64,000 nucleotides of DNA from NCBI RefSeq assembly GCF_019423325.1, contig NZ_JAHZBQ010000003.1, positions 138,601-202,600 of the forward strand. The letters are read 5' to 3'. Each line of letters opens with the position of its first letter. Within the stretch, counting starts at the first letter, position 1. This DNA comes from Campylobacter sp. Its GTDB lineage: Bacteria; Campylobacterota; Campylobacteria; Campylobacterales; Campylobacteraceae. The translations under genes and the position numbers were made by a program. The notes below the pieces were generated by a model. It was not told the DNA's origin. It searched no databases and was given only the letters and a program-made list of their open reading frames with translations. Below, piece by piece: positions 43,516 to 52,210 of this stretch.

Positions 43516-44076
43516 TTAGTATAAATCAGACCAAAAAGGCACATACGGGCATTTTCCGACCGGCTTAAGAGGATTTTTACCAAATTCCCTCAAAAAGTAG
43601 TCATATAAATTTTTCCCATAATAAATGATATCGGTATAGTGTATAGATAAGACCGGCGGATCCGGTAATTTAAGACACGGCATATATCTATGAGAATATA
43701 CGGGTATAATCTTAGGCGCAATTTTGGCTACTTCTAGTACAACGGCTCGCTTGCGAGATCCGTCTTCGGGCATCGGACCCCATTTTTGCGTATTCCAATA
43801 GCCCTCGTTTGGGAAAATTTCATCAATAGGATCGTTTTTTAAGTACTCAAAGACGTAGTTCATAGCCCGCTTTATCTCCTTTATATTTTCATCGCTAAAG
43901 TCTCTCCAATTATAAAGTTTTACCGAAATAGGCAATGTATATGATAAAAAATCTCTTAGGCTTTTTGGAAATTTAAACTCATAAATTTGCTCTATTTTGT
44001 CTATTTCGCTCTCTTTCAAACCATCGCTCAATTCTATGCCGCTCTTTTCTAGCAGCTCTTTTATTTGCTTATACAT
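43516..44076 (-). CDS. SMI1/KNR4 (SUKH-1) family protein
   Basis: 186 aa. N-terminal LSDGLKESEIDKIEQIYEFKFPKSLRDFL is the hallmark SUKH/SMI1 opening. Size is typical. Confidence 0.7.
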   Translation of the reverse strand: MYKQIKELLEKSGIELSDGLKESEIDKIEQIYEFKFPKSLRDFLSYTLPISVKLYNWRDFSDENIKEIKRAMNYVFEYLKNDPIDEIFPNEGYWNTQKWGPMPEDGSRKRAVVLEVAKIAPKIIPVYSHRYMPCLKLPDPPVLSIHYTDIIYYGKNLYDYFLREFGKNPLKPVGKCPYVPFWSDLY

Positions 44077-44101
44077 ATTCTATTTTATCCTTATTAGGCT
44101 T

Positions 44102-44470
44102 TTAGTCGTAGTCGAAGTCGTCAAACTCATAACCAAAAATTTGGATTGTTTTTAGAGCTAATTCGCGTAGTTCGCAAAAGGTGCTATTGTGGTATATAAA
44201 ATCTTCATAGTCTGTCATAGAAGCCTTTTCCTCTTCCTCCCAAAATTTTGAATCGCACTCCGTAAATTTATCTAGCATTTTGGCTATCGCTTTACGTTCC
44301 TCTATACTGAAATAAATTTTGTTTGATTCCGCTAGGGCTATTTTACAAGCACTTTCACAATCTTCTATTAAATCTATGCACAACAAATACTTATCAAGCA
44401 TATATTTTTCTTGACACTCTAATGAGGCAAGGCAGCATAATTCTTTTAATAATCTTTCTTTTATCGACAT
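44102..44470 (-). CDS. putative toxin-immunity protein, unknown family A (divergent copy 3)
   Basis: 122 aa. Shares CLASLECQ near the N-terminus and a C-terminal DYEDFIYHN..F.ELRELALKTIQIFGYEFDDFDYD with the 41794/42219 pair. Confidence 0.5.
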   Translation of the reverse strand: MSIKERLLKELCCLASLECQEKYMLDKYLLCIDLIEDCESACKIALAESNKIYFSIEERKAIAKMLDKFTECDSKFWEEEEKASMTDYEDFIYHNSTFCELRELALKTIQIFGYEFDDFDYD

Positions 44471-44486
44471 TTTATTCTCCTAAATT

Positions 44487-45098
44487 TTATATCCCGTACC
44501 ACTTCGTTACATCCCCCTCTTCGTCGATATCGACCTCTATGTATTTGTATTTATTGTAAAGGCTCGGAATCAAAATTTCGTCATAATATTTTTTGCCGCA
44601 TTCTGCGATAAACATATACATATTATGATGGCACCACCGATTCGGCTCTTCCCAAAAAGCACCGTCTACGCGAGTATAATTTTTTAGAGGTTCGTATGGG
44701 CGAGCTATAAATTTATCTAAATTATAAAAGAAATTTTTTCTTAAAATTTTCCATTCTTCAAATTTTTTCATATTTAAATTTATATTGGCGCTAGTTTTAT
44801 GTTTTATGTCGGTATCTATGAAATTATTTAGATAAAATTGCCCAAATAGCATTATTAAAATATCTCTTACATTATCATCGCATAAATTAAAATTATGAAT
44901 TAATGCACTGGCGATAGAGTCGGTCTCATAGACTTCGGTGCTTTTCATTAGGCTAAACGCCTCAAGCTCATAAAAATCCAGTGGTCTTTTCCCGCTTGCG
45001 GCTTGAAAATCTTTAAAAATCTTAAATCTAAAATCTTCCGCTTCGCTAAAGAAATAGACGTATGGACTTAAATTTAGATTAAGTGCTTTTATTCTCAT
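44487..45098 (-). CDS. hypothetical protein (island gene)
   Basis: 203 aa, AT-rich, co-directional. No family recognised. Confidence 0.45.
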   Translation of the reverse strand: MRIKALNLNLSPYVYFFSEAEDFRFKIFKDFQAASGKRPLDFYELEAFSLMKSTEVYETDSIASALIHNFNLCDDNVRDILIMLFGQFYLNNFIDTDIKHKTSANINLNMKKFEEWKILRKNFFYNLDKFIARPYEPLKNYTRVDGAFWEEPNRWCHHNMYMFIAECGKKYYDEILIPSLYNKYKYIEVDIDEEGDVTKWYGI

Positions 45099-45130
45099 TT
45101 TATACCGTCCAAACTATTGTTTTTCGCATT

Positions 45131-45469
45131 TTAGTATTGTTTTGCATAATAAGCTCTTCCTTGCTGCGTTTCAGTCACGCCAAAGTATTTGCTATTTACA
45201 CTGACCGGCTCATAACTTTTATCATCTCTTAAAATATTTAAAATTTCAGATTTATCACATATCTCTTTCATTTCTGTATCATAACCCCAATTTGAACTAA
45301 ACAATCTTATATAACCTTGCTCGTATAAGAACAATAAAATTTCTTTCGCCACTTTAAGCGAATTGGCAACGTTAATAGAATTTAATTCCCAAACGATCTC
45401 CCATAAAGAGATATAATCGCCATCTTCGACTATTCCCGATAAAATAGTTAAAATCGTCTTTTTATTCAT
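45131..45469 (-). CDS. hypothetical small protein (island gene)
   Basis: 112 aa. No family recognised. Overlaps the upstream gene by 8 nt. Confidence 0.45.
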   Translation of the reverse strand: MNKKTILTILSGIVEDGDYISLWEIVWELNSINVANSLKVAKEILLFLYEQGYIRLFSSNWGYDTEMKEICDKSEILNILRDDKSYEPVSVNSKYFGVTETQQGRAYYAKQY

Positions 45470-45941
45470 TTAAAACCGCATTTCCTTTTAATGGAATTTT
45501 AACTACCGCACCGTCTTTGCTATTTTTAGCACAAGAATCCGGCGTACAATTTTCATAGAAAAATTTGATTTTATAAAAATTCTCATCCCCTGATGCAACT
45601 GCCAATAATAAGCTTTTTATGCGACGAAATCTATCGAAAATATTCGGCTTTGTATCTTCTTGATATTCATACGTTTTAAAACATTCGCTTTTTGCGTCTA
45701 TATCTACGTCGCGCCAACTTCCGTTTAGAAATATATCATTAGAGATAGAAATAATACCTTGCATTATTTCTGGGTCCAACTCTTTATTTTTATAATGCTG
45801 CAAAATCTTTTTTAAATCGGCTTCCAATTTCCAATACTCATCATCGGACCATAGATTATTATCTAAAATCATACCTATGAACGAATTTGCATCATATCTA
45901 TCATCAAATGCGGTATTTCTATAAAAATTTACAAGATTCAT
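45462..45941 (-). CDS. hypothetical protein, unknown family B (copy 2)
   Basis: I prefer the ATG at 45941 (AAAGGA RBS; MNLVNFYRNTAF...), which aligns with the start of the paralogue 45946-46332. Shared Y-R-N, NSF.G, W-S-D..YWKL and ..I.DRF.R.K.L motifs. Confidence 0.5.
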   Translation of the reverse strand: MNLVNFYRNTAFDDRYDANSFIGMILDNNLWSDDEYWKLEADLKKILQHYKNKELDPEIMQGIISISNDIFLNGSWRDVDIDAKSECFKTYEYQEDTKPNIFDRFRRIKSLLLAVASGDENFYKIKFFYENCTPDSCAKNSKDGAVVKIPLKGNAVLNE

Positions 45942-45945
45942 TGCA

Positions 45946-46332
45946 TTAATCCTTTGGAACATACCAAAAACCGCTATTGTCAAGCTTTTCTTTGAATGCG
46001 ATGCTGTTGCAAAGAACCTTTAATCTTTCAAATCTATCATATATGCTAGGCGCCACGCCGTCGCTGTTTTTTGCACACAGCATATTGCTTACATAAATTT
46101 CCGATTTGTCCTCCACGCCGATAACATCATTAAATATTGCTATTATTGCGACGAAAATTTCTCTTGGAAGCGTTTTGTTATGATAAAAGCTCAAAATCTG
46201 CATTAAAGCTTTATCCAACTTCCAATAGTCGCAATCTGACCAAGTTTTTTGATAGATAAATTTTCCGACAAACGAATTGATGCTGAATTTATCAGAATTT
46301 GTTGAATTTCGGTATAAAAGCTCTAAGTCCAT
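45946..46332 (-). CDS. hypothetical protein, unknown family B (copy 1)
   Basis: 128 aa paralogue of the 45462-45941 product. Confidence 0.5.
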   Translation of the reverse strand: MDLELLYRNSTNSDKFSINSFVGKFIYQKTWSDCDYWKLDKALMQILSFYHNKTLPREIFVAIIAIFNDVIGVEDKSEIYVSNMLCAKNSDGVAPSIYDRFERLKVLCNSIAFKEKLDNSGFWYVPKD

Positions 46333-46408
46333 TAATCACCTATCCTTTTTTTCATTTCTTTATTAAATTTAGCCATCTTTATGGCAAATTTTCGTTTATA
46401 AAAATCGA

Positions 46409-46744
46409 TTATTTTTTATTTGATAGCTCTTTAGATAGAATTTCTGAATTGGGATACAATTTTTTCAAAAATTCTATCTCTTCTTGATCTAGCTCATCTA
46501 AAACCTCTTCTATAGGTTTTTCGCTTAAAATTTTTCCATAAACCAAACTCAGCCTTTTATATGCGCGCGGGTTACCGTTCTTTTCAAATTGCCTTATTAT
46601 AGCAATTCTGCACTCTTTTGTTATTTCGGAATCGCCCATAAAAAGATCTTTTATATCGCAAGAGGCGCTTTGCTCTTTATATAGATAAAATATCCACGCA
46701 AATAATATTATAGCGGCGGCAATAAAGTAAATTTTATTTTTCAT
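46409..46744 (-). CDS. membrane-anchored small protein (first gene of the island)
   Basis: 111 aa. N-terminal TM/signal anchor IYFIAAAIILFAWIFYLY. Confidence 0.45.
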   Translation of the reverse strand: MKNKIYFIAAAIILFAWIFYLYKEQSASCDIKDLFMGDSEITKECRIAIIRQFEKNGNPRAYKRLSLVYGKILSEKPIEEVLDELDQEEIEFLKKLYPNSEILSKELSNKK

Positions 46745-46838: not shown

Positions 46839-46914
46839 TGGTGTCCTGCGTTGGATTCGAACCAACGACCCCCTCATTAAAAGTGAGATGCTCTACCTAC
46901 TGAGCTAGCAAGAC
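46839..46914 (-). tRNA. tRNA-Lys (anticodon UUU)
   Basis: Hand-folded, 76 nt. Acceptor GTCTTGC/GCAGGAC, anticodon loop CTTTTAA, T arm GTTGG-TTCGAAT-CCAAC, encoded CCA. Confidence 0.9.
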
Positions 46915-46925
46915 ATCGTAAGAAG

Positions 46926-47002
46926 TGGCGCGACGAATGGGGCTCGAACCCACGACCTCCGCCGTGACAGGGCGGCATTCTAACCAGCTGAACTACCGTC
47001 GC
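46926..47002 (-). tRNA. tRNA-Asp (anticodon GUC)
   Basis: Hand-folded, 77 nt. Acceptor GCGACGG/TCGTCGC, anticodon stem CCGCC/GGCGG with loop CTGTCAC, encoded CCA. Confidence 0.9.
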
Positions 47003-47062
47003 ACCAAAAATCACACTCGCAGCGCAAGTGCTAAAGAAGTATGAAATCCAAGGATTTCAAAA

Positions 47063-47138
47063 TGGTGGTCGCTGTAGGGATCGAACCTGCGACATCCACC
47101 TTGTAAGGGTGGCGCTCTACCAGCTGAGCTAAGCGACC
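47063..47138 (-). tRNA. tRNA-Val (anticodon UAC)
   Basis: Hand-folded, 76 nt. Acceptor GGTCGCT/AGCGACC, anticodon stem CCACC/GGTGG with loop CTTACAA, encoded CCA. One C-A mismatch in the T stem. Confidence 0.88.
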
Positions 47139-47874: not shown

Positions 47875-48945
<1,071 letters not shown>

Positions 48946-49010
48946 AATTTTAATATATTGGCAAAACTTGCTTTTTCTTGACGCCTAATTAAAAGACGGT
49001 TTGAAATTTT

Positions 49011-49040
49011 AACGCTCGTCGGACGGGCGTTAAAATTTTT
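49011..49040 (+). terminator. candidate kdsA terminator hairpin
   Basis: AACGCTCG-TCGGA-CGGGCGTT (one mismatch) followed by AAAATTTTT. Lies 65 nt after the kdsA stop. Confidence 0.35.
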
Positions 49041-49164
49041 ATAATACACGCATGGTTCACACCTAAAAATGTAAAAACATCTGAGCATAAATCGATAGAC
49101 TTATCATTGCCCTTGATCATTGTCTGTTTTACCAAAAAATTCAAACTTTCAAGTTTATAAATTT

Positions 49165-49425
49165 TTAAGCCTTAAATTTAAAAATTTCACCCACCTCGAT
49201 GCCTAAAATTTTTGAAATTTTATAAATATGCTCTAAATTAAAGTGCTTGTCGTAGCGGCAGCTCTCGCAGTTTGAGTAAAACGCGACCGACTTTATATCC
49301 ATACTTAGCGCCATATCCAGCTGGCTCATACCCTTGCTTTCGCGTAGTTTACGGACGTTGGCGGAGATTTGAAGATAAAAATTTTGTATCTCGTCTCCGT
49401 CAAAAAAGGCTAAATTTTCACTCAT
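49165..49425 (-). CDS. XRE-family helix-turn-helix transcriptional regulator
   Basis: 86 aa. HTH_3 pattern NVRKLRESKGMSQLDMALSMDI. Divergent from the Cys-rich peptide gene. Confidence 0.8.
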   Translation of the reverse strand: MSENLAFFDGDEIQNFYLQISANVRKLRESKGMSQLDMALSMDIKSVAFYSNCESCRYDKHFNLEHIYKISKILGIEVGEIFKFKA

Positions 49426-49430
49426 TTTTT

Positions 49431-49443
49431 TATCCTATAGGTA
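49431..49443. promoter_or_regulatory. operator-like half-degenerate palindrome TATCCTATAGGTA
   Basis: Shares the CCTATAGG core with the perfect palindrome at 49486-49499. Lies 6 nt upstream of the XRE start codon. Confidence 0.4.
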
Positions 49444-49485
49444 AAGTAAAAATTAAACTTTATTTGGATAAAATCCGCAAATCTA

Positions 49486-49499
49486 TATCCTATAGGATA
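49486..49499. promoter_or_regulatory. perfect 14-bp palindrome TATCCTATAGGATA (candidate XRE operator)
   Basis: Read directly. Lies 35 nt upstream of the peptide ATG, where a -10 element would be expected. Confidence 0.45.
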
Positions 49500-49533
49500 A
49501 ATAATTAGTAAATTTCTAGAGAAAGGAGAAGAA

Positions 49534-49698
49534 ATGAGTGCCACTATAAATCAATATGAAAAGCTATTCGGCAAAATTATTGAAGTTGTCGCAGGCCGAA
49601 CTTGCGCTTGCTTTTGCTCATGCAGTTGCGGCATGTGCGTATGCTCGTGCCGCGGTCGCAGAAGTGAAAACGACGAAATTGCATGGGAAATATGCTAA
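49534..49698 (+). CDS. 54-aa cysteine-ladder precursor-like peptide (MSATINQYEKLFGKIIEVVAGRTCACFCSCSCGMCVCSCRGRRSENDEIAWEIC)
   Basis: Translated by hand. Missing from the ORF track, apparently because it falls below the track's size cut-off (smallest listed ORF is 60 aa). ATG preceded by GAAAGGAGAAGAA (AGGAG with 7-nt spacing). Cys-free leader-like N-terminus, 8 Cys in 16 residues, TAA stop. Sits 48 nt upstream of a radical SAM/SPASM gene. Confidence 0.7.
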   Translation: MSATINQYEKLFGKIIEVVAGRTCACFCSCSCGMCVCSCRGRRSENDEIAWEIC

Positions 49699-49704
49699 AA
49701 ATTT

Positions 49705-49728
49705 ATCGGCGGACCGAACTCCGCCGAT
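49705..49728 (+). promoter_or_regulatory. intercistronic stem-loop between peptide gene and maturase gene
   Basis: ATCGGCGG-ACCGAACT-CCGCCGAT: a perfect 8-bp GC-rich stem in an AT-rich context. Followed by a T-rich stretch and the AGGA RBS of the maturase. Confidence 0.55.
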
Positions 49729-49746
49729 ACTATTTCAAGGATTTTT

Positions 49747-51156
49747 ATGATTTTTTCAAAATATGGCTTCGCCTTTCATGTAGGTAATGATGTAGCATTA
49801 TATAACTCTTTAAGGATGAAGCCGATCTATTTAAGCGATAACAAATTTAAGAAAATAAAAGAGATTGTTGACAAAAATGTGAAATTATCACAAGACTTAA
49901 AATGCGAAATCGACGAATTGATAAAGTATAAAATTTTAGTCAAAGAGGGCGATGATGAAAAAATTTTAAATTTTGTAAAATCGGTTATTCCTCAACCACA
50001 AATAAACGTATGCTATTTTATTTTAAGCGAACAATGCAATCTGGCTTGTAAATATTGCTTTTTAGGCAACAATAATCAAGAAAAGAGAAAGCGTTTCAAA
50101 AAAGAAAATATGAGTAAGCAAACGGCAATGGATGGAATTTTATTTTTCATAAAACAACTCGAAAGTGCAAATTTCGATGAAAATTCCAAGCCTACCATTT
50201 TATTTTACGGTGGCGAACCACTTTTAAATTTTGAAACACTTGTTTTTATAGTAAATAAAATTAACGAGCTTAAAAAGAGCTGTAAAGTTTTAGAAAAAGT
50301 TGAATTCGACTTGGTCACAAACGGGCTTTTATTAAACAAACAAAGGCTTTTAAAGCTAAACGAACTTGGCGTAAATATCGGTATTTCGATAGATGGTTGT
50401 AATAACGAAACAAATAAAATGCGCGTGGATATCGGCGGAAATTTTGTATTTGAAAAAATTATACAAAAACTTGATTTGGCAAAGTCACTTGGGGTTCCAA
50501 TTTCGCTTTCCGTAACGCTTACGCAAGATAGTATCAAAAATAAAAACGATATGCTTGAGCTTGTCAAGAAATACAATATAAAGGGCTTCGGTTTTAATAT
50601 TTTAATGTCGGATGAGAAGATTTCGGATTTGCACTATCAAAAAACGAGTGAGTTTTTAATCGAAATGTTTAAAGAATTGCGCAAGCTTGGAATTTATGAA
50701 GATAGAATGATGAGAAAGGTAAAATCCTTTGCAAAATCAAGCGTTTATTTTTCGGATTGTGCAGCTACAAGCGGCGGACAGATTGTAATTGCGGCAAACG
50801 GAGATGTGGGAATTTGCCAAGGCTGTTTGTATGATAGAAAATATTTTGTAACGAATGTCTTGGATGAAAATTTTAATCCGACGACCAATGAAATTTGGCA
50901 AAAATTTCGCCATCTCTCGCCGCCCGAAAAGAATGAATGTCAAGAATGTGAAGCTCTTGGCATTTGTGGTGGCGGCTGTCCGATAAGTGCGGCAAACGAA
51001 AAAGTAGGCAATACGATTGATTCTTTGGATAGGAGATTTTGCATTCACGCAAAAGAGAGTCTAAAATTTCTGATCTCAGACCTGCATAGGATCATAACAA
51101 AAGGCGAAAATAGCGAAATTTATGAAAAATGCGAAGTTGATAAGTTAGCGAGATAA
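49747..51156 (+). CDS. radical SAM / SPASM-domain peptide-modifying enzyme (maturase-like)
   Basis: 469 aa. CxxxCxxC radical SAM motif CNLACKYC and the GGEPLL SAM-binding motif. Full SPASM signature: C-x13-G-x4-C (CAATSGGQIVIAANGDVGIC), CQECEALGICGGGC (Cx2Cx5Cx3C) and a distal Cys (RRFCIH). About 90 aa precede the SAM cluster, where an RRE/PqqD-like element would sit. Confidence 0.85.
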   Translation: MIFSKYGFAFHVGNDVALYNSLRMKPIYLSDNKFKKIKEIVDKNVKLSQDLKCEIDELIKYKILVKEGDDEKILNFVKSVIPQPQINVCYFILSEQCNLACKYCFLGNNNQEKRKRFKKENMSKQTAMDGILFFIKQLESANFDENSKPTILFYGGEPLLNFETLVFIVNKINELKKSCKVLEKVEFDLVTNGLLLNKQRLLKLNELGVNIGISIDGCNNETNKMRVDIGGNFVFEKIIQKLDLAKSLGVPISLSVTLTQDSIKNKNDMLELVKKYNIKGFGFNILMSDEKISDLHYQKTSEFLIEMFKELRKLGIYEDRMMRKVKSFAKSSVYFSDCAATSGGQIVIAANGDVGICQGCLYDRKYFVTNVLDENFNPTTNEIWQKFRHLSPPEKNECQECEALGICGGGCPISAANEKVGNTIDSLDRRFCIHAKESLKFLISDLHRIITKGENSEIYEKCEVDKLAR

Positions 51157-51301
51157 TCCGTTATATAAATTTGCCGACTTTAATGTTTTACTTGACCCAA
51201 CCTTAATTCGAAATAGACACTAATTCTAGGTGCTGCTATCTGCAAGAGCTCATCATATATTTTATCTAAAATTTTGCTTCTTAATGCTAAAATAAATTCT
51301 T

Positions 51302-51378
51302 GACCTTTTCGTCTAGTGGCTCAGGACGTTGCATTCTCAGTGCGAAAACGCGTGGTTCAAATCCCGCAAGGGTCGCCA
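51302..51378 (+). tRNA. tRNA-Glu-like (anticodon CUC) with a bulged T stem
   Basis: Hand-folded, 77 nt. Acceptor GACCTTT/AAGGGTC. The D arm TCGTCTAGTGGCTCAGGAC is Glu-like. Anticodon stem TTGCA/TGCGA with loop TTCTCAG. The T arm GCG(T)GG-TTCAAAT-CCCGC needs one bulged T. Encoded CCA. Confidence 0.65.
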
Positions 51379-51433
51379 TTATGGACTTATACAAGCCTCT
51401 TGATTTTAAACGGTAAATTTATCTATGATTTTA

Positions 51434-52210
51434 TCATGGACTTTCATACAGCCCGTCAGATTTTAAATAATAAATTTTATCTGCGATTTTATCGATGAAA
51501 CTTTTATCGTGCGAGACGATGATCTCGCTTACGTCAAGCTCCGCCAAAATCCCCGCCACGCGCTCCTGCATTGCCTCATCAAGCGCCGTCGTAGGCTCGT
51601 CCAGTAGCAGTATCCTAGGCTCGCACACCAGCGCGCCCGCAAGCGCCACCAGCTTTTTCTCGCCGCCGCTTAGATGAAAGGGTACTCGCTCGCGCAGATG
51701 TTCGATTCCCAAGCGTCGCAGCGTCTCCAGCGCCTTGCGCTCAATCTGCTCTTCGCTTAAAATTTCAAGCTTTTTTAGATGGTCGTTTTCGCTGCCCTGC
51801 CTTAAAATTTGCGCCTTACGACCAAAAAATTTAGAAAAAATTCCACGCTTTTTCTCCGCATTTCGTGCTTGTTTTAGCCGCTCATTTTGTGCACGCAGAC
51901 TAAATGCGACGTCCTCAAACACGCTCGCGCACAAAAATTGATCGTCGCTGTTTTGAAATAAAAACCCGATCTCGTGGCGAAATTTTACAAAATCCTCCGC
52001 ACACTCGAGCTTCTCACCGAAAAGCTCGATTTCGCCCTCGCCCCATTGCCTTAGGCCGCCTAAAATTTGAAGCAGGCTCGTCTTGCCCTGCCCGTTCGCG
52101 CCCAAGATCGCCACTTTTTCCTTATGCCCTACGCTCAAATTTACGCCGCGAAAAATTTCTCGCTCGCCGTTTTTAGCGCTTAAATCCAGCGCCTTAAGCG
52201 AACAGCTCAT
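51434..52210 (-). CDS. ECF-type nickel/cobalt transporter ATPase (NikO/CbiO)
   Basis: 258 aa. Walker A GANGQGKT, signature LSGGEKK, Walker B LLLDEP. 4-nt overlap with the upstream T-component gene. Confidence 0.8.
   Translation of the reverse strand: MSCSLKALDLSAKNGEREIFRGVNLSVGHKEKVAILGANGQGKTSLLQILGGLRQWGEGEIELFGEKLECAEDFVKFRHEIGFLFQNSDDQFLCASVFEDVAFSLRAQNERLKQARNAEKKRGIFSKFFGRKAQILRQGSENDHLKKLEILSEEQIERKALETLRRLGIEHLRERVPFHLSGGEKKLVALAGALVCEPRILLLDEPTTALDEAMQERVAGILAELDVSEIIVSHDKSFIDKIADKIYYLKSDGLYESP

What the first reader, a model, noticed from the sequence alone, without database searches (positions are those of the whole stretch)
49165..51156. Candidate new RiPP-type locus: hidden 54-aa cysteine-ladder peptide, radical SAM/SPASM maturase and divergent XRE regulator
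An AT-rich three-gene unit lies between kdsA and a tRNA-Glu-like gene.
- Maturase: 49747-51156 encodes a 469-aa protein. It has the radical SAM motif CNLACKYC and a complete SPASM signature (C-x13-G-x4-C, then CQECEALGICGGGC, then a distal Cys). This is the architecture of peptide-modifying maturases such as AlbA, SkfB, CteB, QhpD and anSME. About 90 residues precede the SAM cluster, where such enzymes carry a leader-recognition element.
- Peptide: 48 nt upstream is a 54-codon gene that the supplied ORF track omits. Its ATG at 49534 follows a strong RBS (AGGAG, 7-nt spacing). It encodes MSATINQYEKLFGKIIEVVAGRTCACFCSCSCGMCVCSCRGRRSENDEIAWEIC.
- Regulator: an XRE HTH gene is transcribed divergently, with palindromic sites in the shared spacer.

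I do not recognise the C-x-C-x-C-x-C-x-C core as any rSAM-RiPP class I know (SCIFF/ranthipeptides, sactipeptides, CXXX-repeat peptides, streptide-type, mycofactocin, PQQ, QhpC). No transporter, protease or immunity gene accompanies it.
Basis: partly seen in the sequence, partly recalled or inferred. Interest (0 to 1): 0.92.

Follow-up and report, generated by a model that had tools for sequence, protein, structure and literature searches.

The report
Reduced FibroRumin peptide-maturase cassette, borrowed switch
This is a real cysteine-rich peptide gene plus its radical-SAM modifying enzyme, but it belongs to an already catalogued (though chemically unstudied) family called FibroRumin; the Campylobacter copy is a stripped-down version wired to a regulator borrowed from a stress-resistance operon.

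Summary
In detail: an 86-aa XRE gene (49165-49425, -), a 54-aa Cys-rich ORF (49534-49698, +) and a 469-aa RRE/radical SAM/SPASM enzyme (49747-51156, +) lie between kdsA and tRNA-Glu(CTC).

It is not a new RiPP class.
- The enzyme is a full-length, above-cutoff match to NCBIfam TIGR04136, "FibroRumin system radical SAM peptide maturase" (661 bits, cutoff 400). RefSeq already gives this name to the same Campylobacter clade.
- The peptide is a divergent homologue of the paired target family TIGR04135/PF27848 (36.4 bits, cutoff 45).

In 82 loci from other taxa the standard layout is two precursors (types B and A), the maturase and a coupled UvrA-like ATPase, carried on mobile elements.

The Campylobacter version differs:
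- one type-A-like precursor with a rewired Cys ladder found nowhere else;
- no UvrA-like gene;
- an XRE/operator/promoter block (49164-49506) 96.5% identical to the module that elsewhere sits beside a terD-terC operon.

All three genes are under purifying selection, although one sublineage is decaying.

No paper in the searchable library describes the family's chemistry or function.

Verdict: new variant of a known kind, moderate-to-low interest.

The parts
49164..49506 (.). Regulatory module shared with ter loci: XRE gene plus 81 bp of control region holding both operators and a -10-like box
   Evidence: It is 96.5% identical over 343 bp to C. rectus-type contigs L101 and L102, and about 85% identical to L105-L107. 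In those contigs it lies divergent to terD-terD-x-terC. Similarity ends at 49506, just before the peptide's RBS.
49165..49425 (-). XRE-family HTH regulator, 86 aa
   Evidence: Pfam HTH_3 at 24.5 bits. PADLOC 'Control_protein' (R-M C-protein-like) at 33.6 bits. pN/pS 0.135 over 10 copies. The identical protein occurs in 7 FibroRumin contexts and one ter context.
49431..49444 (.). Operator-like site O1 (TATCCTATAGGTAA), overlapping the XRE ribosome-binding region
   Evidence: Direct repeat D1 and inverted repeat I3. Conserved, with single-base variants in 3 of 13 copies. Present in the ter loci. Regulator binding is inferred, not shown.
49486..49499 (.). Operator-like site O2: perfect 14-bp palindrome TATCCTATAGGATA, next to a -10-like AATAAT (49500-49505)
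   Evidence: Invariant in all 13 Campylobacter copies. Identical in ter loci L101, L102 and L105, with one mismatch in L106 and L107. The promoter role is inferred from position only.
49524..49528 (+). Ribosome-binding site AGGAG of the peptide gene, 5 nt before the ATG
   Evidence: Read directly from the sequence. Invariant in 13 copies.
49534..49698 (+). Precursor peptide, 54 aa. Leader MSATINQYEKLFGKI; core CACFCSCSCGMCVCSC; tail RGRRSENDEIAWEIC
   Evidence: TIGR04135 at 36.4 bits, E 3.8e-9, below the cutoff of 45. My type-A profile scores 39.7 bits end to end, against 24.4 for type B. All Cys are invariant in 13 copies, with pN/pS 0.25 over 10 of them. PF27848 is recorded on identical ORFs.
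49704..49729 (+). Perfect 10-bp stem / 6-nt loop hairpin between the peptide and enzyme genes (candidate attenuator or transcript-stabilising element)
   Evidence: I14. RNA fold -19.3 kcal/mol, z = -3.7. Variation across copies falls mainly in the loop; the stem is kept except for one G>A change in the decaying L004/L016 sublineage. The function is inferred.
49747..51156 (+). FibroRumin-family radical SAM/SPASM peptide maturase, 469 aa
   Evidence: TIGR04136 at 661 bits (cutoff 400), covering profile positions 1-458 of 458. pN/pS 0.093. AF2 model pLDDT 84, pTM 0.84. Full-length structural matches to TigE 8VPO and CteB 5WGG.
49747..50001 (+). N-terminal RRE (winged-helix leader-recognition) domain, about aa 1-85
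   Evidence: The model shows three strands then three helices at pLDDT 82-94. It aligns with the RRE-containing full-length structures of TigE and CteB. The TigE RRE is residues 3-85 (PMC10878394).
50035..50058 (+). Radical SAM cluster motif C97-x3-C101-x2-C104
   Evidence: Read from the sequence. Invariant in alignment A1. Pfam Radical_SAM at 67 bits.
50758..51042 (+). SPASM domain with eight conserved Cys (338, 357, 360, 398, 401, 407, 411, 432)
   Evidence: Pfam SPASM scores 19.3 bits, just under its gathering score of 21.5. The fold matches the SPASM domains of anSME, CteB and TigE.
51302..51378 (+). tRNA-Glu(CTC), marking the downstream edge of the cassette
   Evidence: ARAGORN and Rfam at 49.8 bits. 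The cbiO-tRNA-Glu(CTC) adjacency is kept in Campylobacter sp. VBCF_05 (L099), where synteny ends at the tRNA.

Best explanation
The locus is a reduced member of the FibroRumin radical-SAM RiPP family that entered an uncultured oral Campylobacter lineage horizontally.

Proposed mechanism:
1. The 54-aa peptide is the substrate of the adjacent enzyme.
2. The enzyme's N-terminal RRE domain binds the conserved leader (MSA..Y..LFG.I).
3. The radical SAM/SPASM core then modifies the Cys-dense core of the peptide. The most likely chemistry is several intramolecular Cys-derived thioether cross-links. This last step is an inference by analogy with the nearest characterised enzymes (CteB, PapB).

Compared with the standard family layout, the Campylobacter version has lost the second (type-B) precursor and the translationally coupled UvrA-like ATPase. 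Its remaining precursor has a rewired Cys spacing.

Its transcription comes from a borrowed native control block: an XRE repressor gene, two palindromic operators and a -10-like box. In C. rectus-type genomes the same block sits beside a terD-terD-terC operon. A hairpin between the peptide and enzyme genes probably sets their expression ratio.

Shown: family membership, the peptide-enzyme association, the domain architecture, purifying selection, and the chimeric origin of the regulator.
Inferred: the thioether chemistry, repression by the XRE, the role of the hairpin, and the biological function.
For: Family identity
- The enzyme matches TIGR04136 at 661 bits (cutoff 400) over the whole profile, and the peptide matches TIGR04135 at E 3.8e-9.
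- RefSeq uses the FibroRumin name for this clade's enzyme.

Peptide-enzyme association
- In 82 non-Campylobacter loci, 72 of 75 with enough upstream sequence have a profile-positive Cys-rich ORF just upstream. Of those 75, 66 have both A and B types.
- 63 of 67 loci with enough downstream sequence have a UvrA-like gene directly downstream.

Architecture
- The AF2 model (pLDDT 84) has an RRE, a radical SAM barrel and a SPASM domain.
- It aligns over its full length with TigE (TM 0.72/0.75) and CteB (TM 0.69/0.73).

Functionality
- pN/pS is 0.093 for the enzyme, 0.25 for the peptide and 0.135 for the XRE. The flanking genes give 0.05-0.13.
- All Cys are invariant. The RBS and the O2 operator are invariant, and the hairpin stem is kept in 11 of 13 copies.

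Derived reduction
- The nearest relatives (L010/L011 and L018, about 60% identity) are canonical.
- No UvrA-like gene exists anywhere in the 64-kb window.

Horizontal origin
- The enzyme is 33.5% GC against flanks of about 50%.
- Canonical loci sit among recombinases, relaxases, TnpV and integrases.
- The cassette abuts a tRNA gene at which synteny with another Campylobacter breaks.

Borrowed regulator
- Window 49164-49506 is 96.5% identical to the ter-associated module.
- No XRE homologue was detected in the non-Campylobacter FibroRumin loci scanned, apart from one weak hit on the opposite strand in L084 (E 3e-4).
Against: - The peptide scores below the curated TIGR04135 cutoff (36.4 against 45). 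It also lacks the near-invariant Asn and the canonical Cys spacing of type-A precursors.
- Two family components that are almost always present (type-B precursor, UvrA-like ATPase) are absent, so the product or role may differ from canonical systems, or be partial.
- One sublineage shows decay: P158L in the invariant GGEP motif in L004 and L016, Q260* in L004, plus a weakened RBS and hairpin.
- The chemistry is wholly uncharacterised. The best structural match, TigE, makes C-C bonds, not thioethers. The eight SPASM-region Cys could ligate both auxiliary clusters fully, unlike CteB, whose open iron site binds the substrate Cys.
- No transcript, peptide or binding data exist.
Confidence: 0.75

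Rival explanations
1. Decaying remnant. After losing the type-B precursor and the UvrA-like partner during integration, the two-gene cassette is functionless cargo on its way to pseudogenisation.
For: - L004 carries Q260*. RefSeq splits that copy into 259-aa and 201-aa proteins, seen on 6-10 contigs.
- L004 and L016 carry P158L in the invariant GGEP motif, an AAGGA>AAGAA change in the RBS and a weakened hairpin.
- Two near-universal family components are missing.
Against: - 12 of the 13 Campylobacter copies recovered show no nonsense or frameshift in the sequence available; four of them are cut off by contig ends.
- Enzyme pN/pS is 0.093, similar to housekeeping flanks.
- Every Cys, the RBS and the O2 operator are invariant, and the hairpin stem is kept in 11 of 13 copies.
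- The XRE-peptide spacer is more conserved (130 of 146 columns) than the neighbouring kdsA-XRE spacer (192 of 254).
Confidence: 0.1
2. Not a secreted antimicrobial. The Cys-ladder peptide acts inside the cell as a metal-, metalloid- or redox-handling peptide. It has taken the place of the terD/terC stress operon under the same stress-responsive XRE switch.
For: - No exporter, leader protease or immunity gene is present here, and none recurs in the flanks of canonical loci scanned.
- Both termini of the precursor are conserved family-wide: the N-terminal Y/FG motif and the C-terminal acidic-Trp motif.
- C-x-C density resembles metallothioneins (own knowledge).
- The promoter/operator block is shared with a ter operon.
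- One scaffold (L115) joins this lineage's kdsA-XRE to terD-terC in place of the peptide-enzyme pair.
Against: - This rests on purely contextual evidence.
- L115 may be an assembly chimera: it contains a run of N and the junction lies inside a shared 343-bp repeat.
- Sharing a regulator does not imply sharing a function.
- Many RiPPs use exporters and proteases encoded elsewhere.
- Radical SAM modification would consume thiols if thioethers are formed.
Confidence: 0.12
3. The enzyme serves a distal protein substrate (for example sulfatase-type Cys oxidation), and the small ORF is incidental.
For: The enzyme gives generic sub-threshold hits to anSME (114 bits) and structural similarity to anSMEcpe.
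Against: - The anSME score is far below its cutoff of 349, whereas TIGR04136 is far above its own.
- An RRE domain is present, which anSME lacks.
- Homologous peptides lie beside 72 of 75 homologous enzymes.
- The peptide is under purifying selection.
Confidence: 0.02

Closest known systems
FibroRumin system (NCBIfam TIGR04136 maturase + TIGR04135 / Pfam PF27848 Cys-rich target peptides)
   Same: - The enzyme is an above-cutoff, full-length member (661 bits).
- The precursor lies immediately upstream on the same strand and shares the leader (MSA..Y..LFG.I), the Cys-dense core and the acidic-Trp tail.
- No dedicated exporter or protease.
- Lives in horizontally mobile DNA.
   Different: - Only one precursor, against the usual B + A pair (66 of 75 loci).
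- Core spacing is CxCxCxCxCxxCxCxC, against CxCxxCxxCxCxCxC, and the conserved Asn is lost.
- The peptide scores below the curated cutoff.
- No coupled UvrA-like ATPase (present in 63 of 67 loci).
- It has an XRE regulator that the other FibroRumin loci examined lack.
- The host is Campylobacter, whereas the named hosts of other members are Clostridia-type MAGs, Bacillus and Atopobium.
SCIFF/ranthipeptide maturase CteB (PDB 5WGG/5WHY) and PapB
   Same: - RRE + radical SAM + SPASM architecture (CteB).
- Best characterised relatives by sequence: CteB at 105 bits in the PDB search, PapB at 119 bits in NCBIfam.
- Cys-rich substrates.
- Likely Cys-centred chemistry.
   Different: - Only about 21% identity to CteB.
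- Scores are far below the family cutoffs (95 against 425; 119 against 340).
- The precursor is unrelated to SCIFF or to the CX3D/E repeat peptides.
- There are eight rather than seven SPASM-region Cys.
Cyclopropyl synthases TigE/TvgB (PDB 8VPO)
   Same: Top structural match over the whole length (TM 0.72/0.75), with the same three-domain layout.
   Different: - The defining GYW motif, whose Tyr ligates auxiliary cluster I (PMC10878394), is absent in all 22 family members checked.
- The substrates are Ile/Val repeat peptides, not Cys ladders.
XRE/C-protein-type autoregulated switches; the terD-terC-associated XRE of C. rectus-type Campylobacter
   Same: - The regulator and 81-bp control region are nearly identical (96.5%).
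- The two palindromic operators are 55 bp apart, one over the regulator's own RBS and one at the divergent promoter.
   Different: The divergent operon is a RiPP pair instead of terD-terD-x-terC. No experimental data exist for either arrangement.

Membership tests
FibroRumin system | Maturase scores above the curated TIGR04136 cutoff over the full length | tested here: met
   661 bits against a cutoff of 400, E 9e-199, profile positions 1-458 of 458. RefSeq gives the same name to proteins of the same 90%-identity cluster.
FibroRumin system | Adjacent Cys-rich precursor matching TIGR04135 / PF27848 | tested here: inconclusive
   NCBIfam gives 36.4 bits, below the cutoff of 45, although E is 3.8e-9. 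Canonical A and B peptides score 64.9 and 53.3. A precomputed Pfam PF27848 hit is recorded for the 98%-identical P0121 and for identical-length ORFs in L112 and L116. The local Pfam copy returned nothing for the peptide. The peptide aligns end to end with my type-A profile at 39.7 bits.
FibroRumin system | Tandem pair of precursors (type B then type A) upstream of the maturase (empirical norm) | tested here: not met
   There is only one precursor. The shared ter-type module ends 27 nt before its ATG, leaving no room for a second gene. Among other taxa, 66 of 75 loci have both types.
FibroRumin system | Translationally coupled UvrA-like ABC ATPase downstream (empirical norm) | tested here: not met
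   tRNA-Glu follows 145 nt after the stop codon. tblastn of three UvrA-like partners against the whole window gives a best E of 0.86, on the cbiO-like ATPase. The gene is present in 63 of 67 other loci.
RRE-dependent radical SAM/SPASM RiPP maturases (general class) | N-terminal RRE fold, CX3CX2C motif, and the SPASM Cys motif | tested here: met
   The AF2 model has three strands then three helices at residues 1-80 with pLDDT 82-94. It aligns over its full length with TigE and CteB, which contain an RRE. The Cys motifs are invariant.
SCIFF / ranthipeptide (CteB, PapB) | Above-cutoff match to TIGR03974 or NF047865, and a SCIFF or CX3D/E-type precursor | tested here: not met
   95.4 bits against 425, and 118.6 against 340. 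The peptide matches no SCIFF model.
Anaerobic sulfatase maturase | Above-cutoff match to TIGR03942; no RRE; distal sulfatase substrate | tested here: not met
   114.4 bits against 349.45. An RRE is present. A conserved adjacent peptide is present.
Radical SAM cyclopropyl synthases (TigE/TvgB) | GYW motif whose Tyr ligates auxiliary cluster I (PMC10878394) | tested here: not met
   No GYW in the window enzyme or in any of the 22 aligned family members.
Thioether-forming (sacti-/ranthi-type) chemistry | Loss of 2 Da per cross-link, with loss of free thiols | not testable with these tools
   This needs anaerobic co-expression and MS/MS. It is inferred only from the Cys-rich substrate and the nearest characterised relatives.

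The most novel reading that the evidence does not exclude
FibroRumin peptides may not be bacteriocins at all. They could be intracellular, radical-SAM-tailored Cys-ladder peptides that handle metal, metalloid or redox stress (or, in canonical loci, DNA-related stress, given the UvrA-like partner). On this reading, the two-gene core in this Campylobacter lineage has been slotted in place of the terD-terC operon under the same XRE stress switch. That would be a natural module swap pointing to an equivalent physiological role.
Probability: 0.12. Interest if true: 0.7.

Novelty: new variant of a known kind. Interest (0 to 1): 0.35.

Why it matters
The FibroRumin family is large, with at least 1,258 database clusters at E <= 1e-30. 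It has been catalogued by HMM, yet I found no paper describing its product, chemistry or role.

The Campylobacter version is the smallest natural form seen here: one precursor and one enzyme, apparently kept by selection without the UvrA-like partner. That makes it a convenient minimal system for reconstituting the chemistry, and for asking what the second precursor and the ATPase add in canonical systems.

The precise reuse of a ter-operon regulator/promoter block is a neat example of a foreign biosynthetic pair being domesticated under a native switch. It also suggests concrete induction conditions to try.

None of this amounts to a new RiPP class.

Tried and rejected
- Literature. Full-text searches for 'FibroRumin', TIGR04135/TIGR04136, core-motif strings, and UvrA + radical SAM + RiPP combinations gave nothing relevant. 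Haft & Basu 2011 could not be opened by DOI or PMC id. The statement that the family is uncharacterised therefore rests on absence from the searchable library.\n- Empty-site test. The closest outgroup contig (L097, CbiO 86% identical) ends about 590 bp past cbiO, with a degenerate tRNA-like stretch and an unannotated 82-aa ORF. The next relative (L099) keeps cbiO-tRNA-Glu but has unrelated genes beyond it. No clean empty site was found.\n- Phage carriage. Only two distant (35-39% identity) hits in 2.9 million viral contigs, so this idea was rejected.\n- Known defence systems. PADLOC gave only generic viperin-type radical SAM hits for the enzyme and nothing for the peptide. The UvrA-like partner from other taxa resembles mad3/mad8, but that gene is absent from this window.\n- RNA elements. 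Rfam found nothing in 48900-51450 except the tRNA.\n- Promoter scan. The sigma-70 consensus scan was no better than shuffles (10 sites found, 9.0 expected) and did not pick out the spacer. The proposed -10 box is therefore my own reading of the sequence.\n- Operator statistics. The operator 12-mer count in the window is not significant by count alone (3 matches, 1.55 expected). Its significance rests on pairing, position and conservation.\n- A hybrid A/B origin of the peptide. The C-terminal 'W + 3 residues' resembles type B, but profile scores favour type A overall (39.7 against 24.4 bits). This is left as a note.\n- An error of mine. The first kdsA C-terminal dN/dS slice was out of frame and was discarded.


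Full report
**1. Observation**

- XRE, 49165-49425 (-), 86 aa;
- a 54-aa ORF, 49534-49698 (+), with exactly the quoted sequence;
- a 469-aa ORF, 49747-51156 (+).

The enzyme carries C97-x3-C101-x2-C104 and a SPASM-type set of Cys: C338-x13-G-x4-C357-x2-C360, then C398-x2-C401-x5-C407-x3-C411, then C432. All of these are invariant in a 22-sequence family alignment.

The flanks are as stated. kdsA matches TIGR01362 at 380 bits. tRNA-Glu(CTC) lies at 51302-51378.

The peptide-enzyme pair is AT-rich. The enzyme is 33.5% GC with GC3 33%. The neighbouring genes are about 50% GC with GC3 55-66%, and the window as a whole is 46%.

One small correction: AGGAG ends 5 nt, not 7, before the peptide ATG.

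**2. What it is**

- The enzyme matches NCBIfam TIGR04136, "FibroRumin system radical SAM peptide maturase", at 661 bits (cutoff 400) across the whole profile.
- Every other peptide-maturase model scores far below its own cutoff: PapB 119 against 340, anSME 114 against 349, and SCIFF maturase 95 against 425.
- The peptide matches the paired model TIGR04135, "FibroRumin family radical SAM-modified Cys-rich RiPP", at 36.4 bits and E 3.8e-9. That is below the cutoff of 45.

A database search found at least 1,258 related enzyme clusters at E <= 1e-30, and many of them are named FibroRumin maturase by NCBI. Proteins in the same 90%-identity cluster as the window enzyme are already named this way in RefSeq for "uncultured Campylobacter sp." (WP_297948638.1, WP_297942054.1). 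A 98%-identical peptide (P0121) is in NCBI and ENA records. It is unnamed but carries a precomputed Pfam PF27848 FibroRuminTarg hit.

So the Cys ladder is not an unrecognised class. It is a divergent member of a family catalogued in silico.

**3. Is the peptide-enzyme pairing real?**

I fetched 82 non-Campylobacter loci encoding homologous enzymes at about 49-61% identity. I then scanned their neighbourhoods. The loci were not dereplicated, so some are near-duplicates.
- Of 75 loci with at least 450 nt upstream, 72 have a profile-positive Cys-rich small ORF just upstream on the same strand.
- Of those 75, 66 have two ORFs. The first is type B (..Y..MLG.I…C.SQCTGCMCNCRCSC.GG…EWEE.). The second is type A (MSA..Y..LFG.I…ARCACVACNSCTCACSCR…EIEW).
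- The exceptions carry fused A/B forms or longer Cys/Pro-rich peptides.

The rival idea of a distal substrate is effectively excluded.

**4. Architecture**

An AlphaFold2 model built from the family alignment is confident (mean pLDDT 84, pTM 0.84). Residues 1-80 form three strands followed by three helices at pLDDT 82-94.

Foldseek against the PDB gives full-length matches to two RRE-radical SAM-SPASM enzymes: TigE (8VPO, TM 0.72/0.75) and CteB (5WGG, TM 0.69/0.73). These are followed by anSME, ChlB, SuiB and SkfB. The sequence-profile search gives the same leading hits.

The TigE paper defines its RRE as residues 3-85. It also states that all cyclopropyl synthases carry a GYW motif whose Tyr ligates auxiliary cluster I (PMC10878394). 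That motif is absent from all 22 FibroRumin enzymes checked, so TigE-type chemistry is not indicated.

The claim of a leader-recognition domain ahead of the SAM cluster is confirmed at the level of fold.

**5. How the Campylobacter copy differs from the family norm**

*(a) The UvrA-like partner is missing.* In 63 of 67 other loci with enough downstream sequence, a ~705-aa UvrA-like ABC ATPase follows the maturase, and in the loci with called genes its start overlaps the maturase's stop codon. It scores 338 bits to TIGR00630, below that model's cutoff, and carries Pfam UvrA_DNA-bind. In the window, tRNA-Glu follows the enzyme after 145 nt. No UvrA-like gene exists anywhere in the 64 kb; the best tblastn E is 0.86.

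*(b) There is only one precursor.* It aligns end to end with my type-A profile (39.7 bits, against 24.4 for type B).

*(c) The core of that precursor is rewired.* CACVACNSC-TCACSCR in the family becomes CACFCSCSCGMCVCSCR here. One Cys is lost, two are gained, and the near-invariant Asn is gone. The tail ends W-E-I-C rather than at the Trp.

An exhaustive phmmer search of 1.84 billion representative proteins found this ladder core only in the Campylobacter cluster. The next hits are ordinary A/B precursors at E 3e-6 to 3e-4.

A neighbour-joining tree places the Campylobacter enzymes next to L010/L011 and L018, which are fully canonical. The tree has no bootstrap support values. On this evidence, the two-gene form is most simply explained as derived by loss.

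**6. The regulator is borrowed**

This was the unexpected result.

No XRE homologue lies near any other FibroRumin locus, apart from one weak hit on the opposite strand in L084 (E 3e-4). Yet the XRE's 90%-identity cluster has 227 members and includes Campylobacter rectus.

In C. rectus-type contigs (L101-L104) and in a second species-level group (L105-L108), the XRE sits divergent to terD-terD-x-terC. The synteny on its other side is conserved: UPF0093, TM2, lspA, glmM, rpsT.

Window 49164-49506 is 96.5% identical over 343 bp to L101 and L102, and about 85% identical to L105-L107. This block is exactly the XRE ORF plus 81 bp of control region. It contains both operator-like palindromes:
- O1, TATCCTATAGGTAA, at 49431-49444. 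It overlaps the XRE's own ribosome-binding region.
- O2, the perfect 14-mer TATCCTATAGGATA, at 49486-49499.

It also contains an adjoining AATAAT at 49500-49505. Similarity stops there, 18 nt before the peptide's AGGAG.

So the "three-gene unit" is a chimera. An imported peptide-enzyme pair is fused, close to the likely transcription start, to a native Campylobacter regulator/operator/promoter block.

Across 13 Campylobacter copies this spacer is more conserved (130 of 146 invariant columns, O2 invariant) than the kdsA-XRE spacer (192 of 254).

The XRE resembles restriction-modification "controller" proteins in PADLOC (33.6 bits). That fits an autoregulated two-operator switch. Binding and repression are inferred, not shown. 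The consensus promoter scan did not single out this spacer.

**7. Other anatomy**

A perfect 10-bp stem with a 6-nt loop (49704-49729) lies between the peptide stop codon and the enzyme's RBS. It folds at -19.3 kcal/mol with z = -3.7. Between copies, the changes fall mainly in the loop.

By analogy with other RiPP operons (own knowledge), it probably raises the precursor-to-enzyme ratio through partial termination or transcript stabilisation. This is an inference.

**8. Is it functional?**

Thirteen Campylobacter copies (the window plus 12 others) all sit at the same kdsA…tRNA-Glu…cbiO site.

Pooled Nei-Gojobori pN/pS values, which are pairwise and not tree-corrected, are as follows:

| Gene | pN/pS |
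|---|---|
| Enzyme | 0.093 |
| Peptide | 0.25 |
| XRE | 0.135 |
| cbiO (flank) | 0.133 |
| SLT-domain gene (flank) | 0.048 |

All nine Cys are invariant. Peptide substitutions are confined to positions 16, 18, 20, 35 and 47.

One sublineage is decaying.
- L004 and L016 carry P158L in the invariant GGEP motif, an AAGGA>AAGAA change in the RBS and a weakened hairpin.
- L004 also carries Q260*. RefSeq records that copy as two fragments, seen on 6-10 contigs.

The cassette is therefore maintained in most lineages but is dispensable.

**9. Origin**

The host is an uncultured oral Campylobacter lineage. Outside its own clade, its CbiO has relatives at 86% and then no more than 60% identity.

Flanks of canonical FibroRumin loci are dominated by serine recombinases, MobA/VirD2 and Mob_Pre relaxases, TnpV, integrases and rve transposases. 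No recurrent exporter or protease appears. The family is very rare in viral contigs.

In Campylobacter sp. VBCF_05, cbiO-tRNA-Glu(CTC) is conserved but synteny ends at the tRNA. Horizontal arrival next to the tRNA is therefore well supported by composition, phylogeny and context. I did not find a clean empty site.

One scaffold, L115, joins this lineage's kdsA 3' end, spacer and XRE (92.7% identity to window 48710-49506) to terD-terD-x-terC. If real, the ter operon and the FibroRumin pair are alternative cargoes of one switch at one site. However, the scaffold contains a run of N and the junction lies inside the shared 343-bp repeat. It may be an assembly chimera.

**10. Mechanism and its limits**

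The best-supported account runs as follows.
1. The RRE docks onto the conserved leader.
2. The Cys-dense core enters the radical SAM/SPASM active site.
3. Several Cys-derived cross-links are installed.

Thioethers are the most likely chemistry, because the closest characterised relatives (CteB, PapB) make them on Cys-rich substrates.

Against over-confidence:
- identity to those enzymes is only about 21%;
- the top structural match makes C-C bonds;
- the eight SPASM-region Cys could fully ligate both auxiliary clusters, unlike CteB.

The biological role is open. No exporter, protease or immunity gene appears anywhere in the family, both peptide termini are conserved, and the promoter is shared with a ter operon. 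These points keep an intracellular stress-related role alive as a minority hypothesis.

**11. Literature**

No paper in the searchable library mentions FibroRumin, TIGR04135, TIGR04136 or the core motifs. A review credits Haft & Basu (2011) with the in-silico discovery of radical SAM/SPASM-peptide pairs and 68 HMM subfamilies (PMC10114670). I could not open the original paper. From my own knowledge, the TIGR0413x models date from that effort.

"Chemically uncharacterised" therefore means "not found in the accessible literature".

**12. Verdict**

It is a genuine RiPP-type pair, but of a known, already-annotated family, and the regulator is a separate borrowed module.
- Novelty: a new variant of a known kind, with a minimal architecture, a unique core and a regulator swap.
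- Interest is moderate-to-low (0.35). The locus is useful as a minimal model for an unstudied family and as a tidy case of promoter capture. It is not a discovery of a new class.

Noticed in passing
window 43516-46744 (- strand): An AT-rich stretch (30-34% GC) beside the tRNA-Lys/Asp/Val cluster (46839-47138). It encodes an array of small genes, including two Imm41 immunity-protein homologues (45462-45983 and 45946-46332; 43 and 41 bits) and a weak SUKH-1/SMI1_KNR4 hit (43516-44076). It looks like an orphan polymorphic-toxin immunity array. The content varies between strains (compare L109 with L112).
   Followed up: partly
window 47905-48945 (kdsA), insertion at about nt 48350-48600: KdsA is 346 aa and matches the KDO8P synthase models in two stretches. 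The domain is split by a low-complexity insert of roughly 90 aa, rich in Ala, Ser and Gln. DNA alignments between Campylobacter MAGs break there (window ~48515-48551), and other copies encode 350- or 384-aa versions.
   Followed up: partly
L004 (4947-6353) and L016 (940-2346): One sublineage of the cassette is decaying. Both carry P158L in the invariant GGEP motif, an AAGGA>AAGAA change in the enzyme's RBS and a hairpin stem mismatch. L004 also has Q260*, which RefSeq records as two fragments, WP_366111769.1 and WP_297894128.1.
   Followed up: yes
L115 1-4884: This scaffold joins terC-x-terD-terD to the exact window XRE, the XRE-kdsA spacer and the kdsA 3' end. It is either an alternative allele of this site or an assembly chimera across the shared 343-bp XRE module. 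It contains a run of N and has a private 2-nt deletion in the spacer.
   Followed up: partly
window 49534-51156 compared with 49165-49425 and the flanks: Synonymous divergence among the Campylobacter copies is lower for the peptide and enzyme (pS 0.06-0.08) than for the XRE and the flanking genes (0.15-0.29). Possible reasons are later spread of the pair through the clade by recombination, or constraint from AT-biased codon usage. It remains unexplained.
   Followed up: no
L012 6401-8521; L014 2452-4593; L010 6392-8509: The UvrA-like ATPase coupled to canonical FibroRumin maturases resembles mad3 (152 bits) and mad8 of the PADLOC 'mads' defence-system models. It is a truncated UvrA paralogue (338 bits to TIGR00630, cutoff 730). 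Its role in a RiPP locus is unknown.
   Followed up: partly
L020, L037, L042, L080, L089, L092 (single fused peptides); L033 and P0280 (B+A in one ORF); L093, L094 (long Cys/Pro-rich peptides): Other architectural variants of the family exist. Some loci have a single precursor that combines the A-type and B-type core motifs. Others have longer Cys/Pro-rich precursors. L020, L080 and L093 also lack the UvrA-like gene.
   Followed up: no
L097 5040-5611: In the closest outgroup contig (CbiO 86% identical), the tRNA-Glu region is degenerate: ARAGORN finds no tRNA and identity is 72%. It is followed by an unannotated 82-aa HTH-like ORF before the contig ends.
   Followed up: partly
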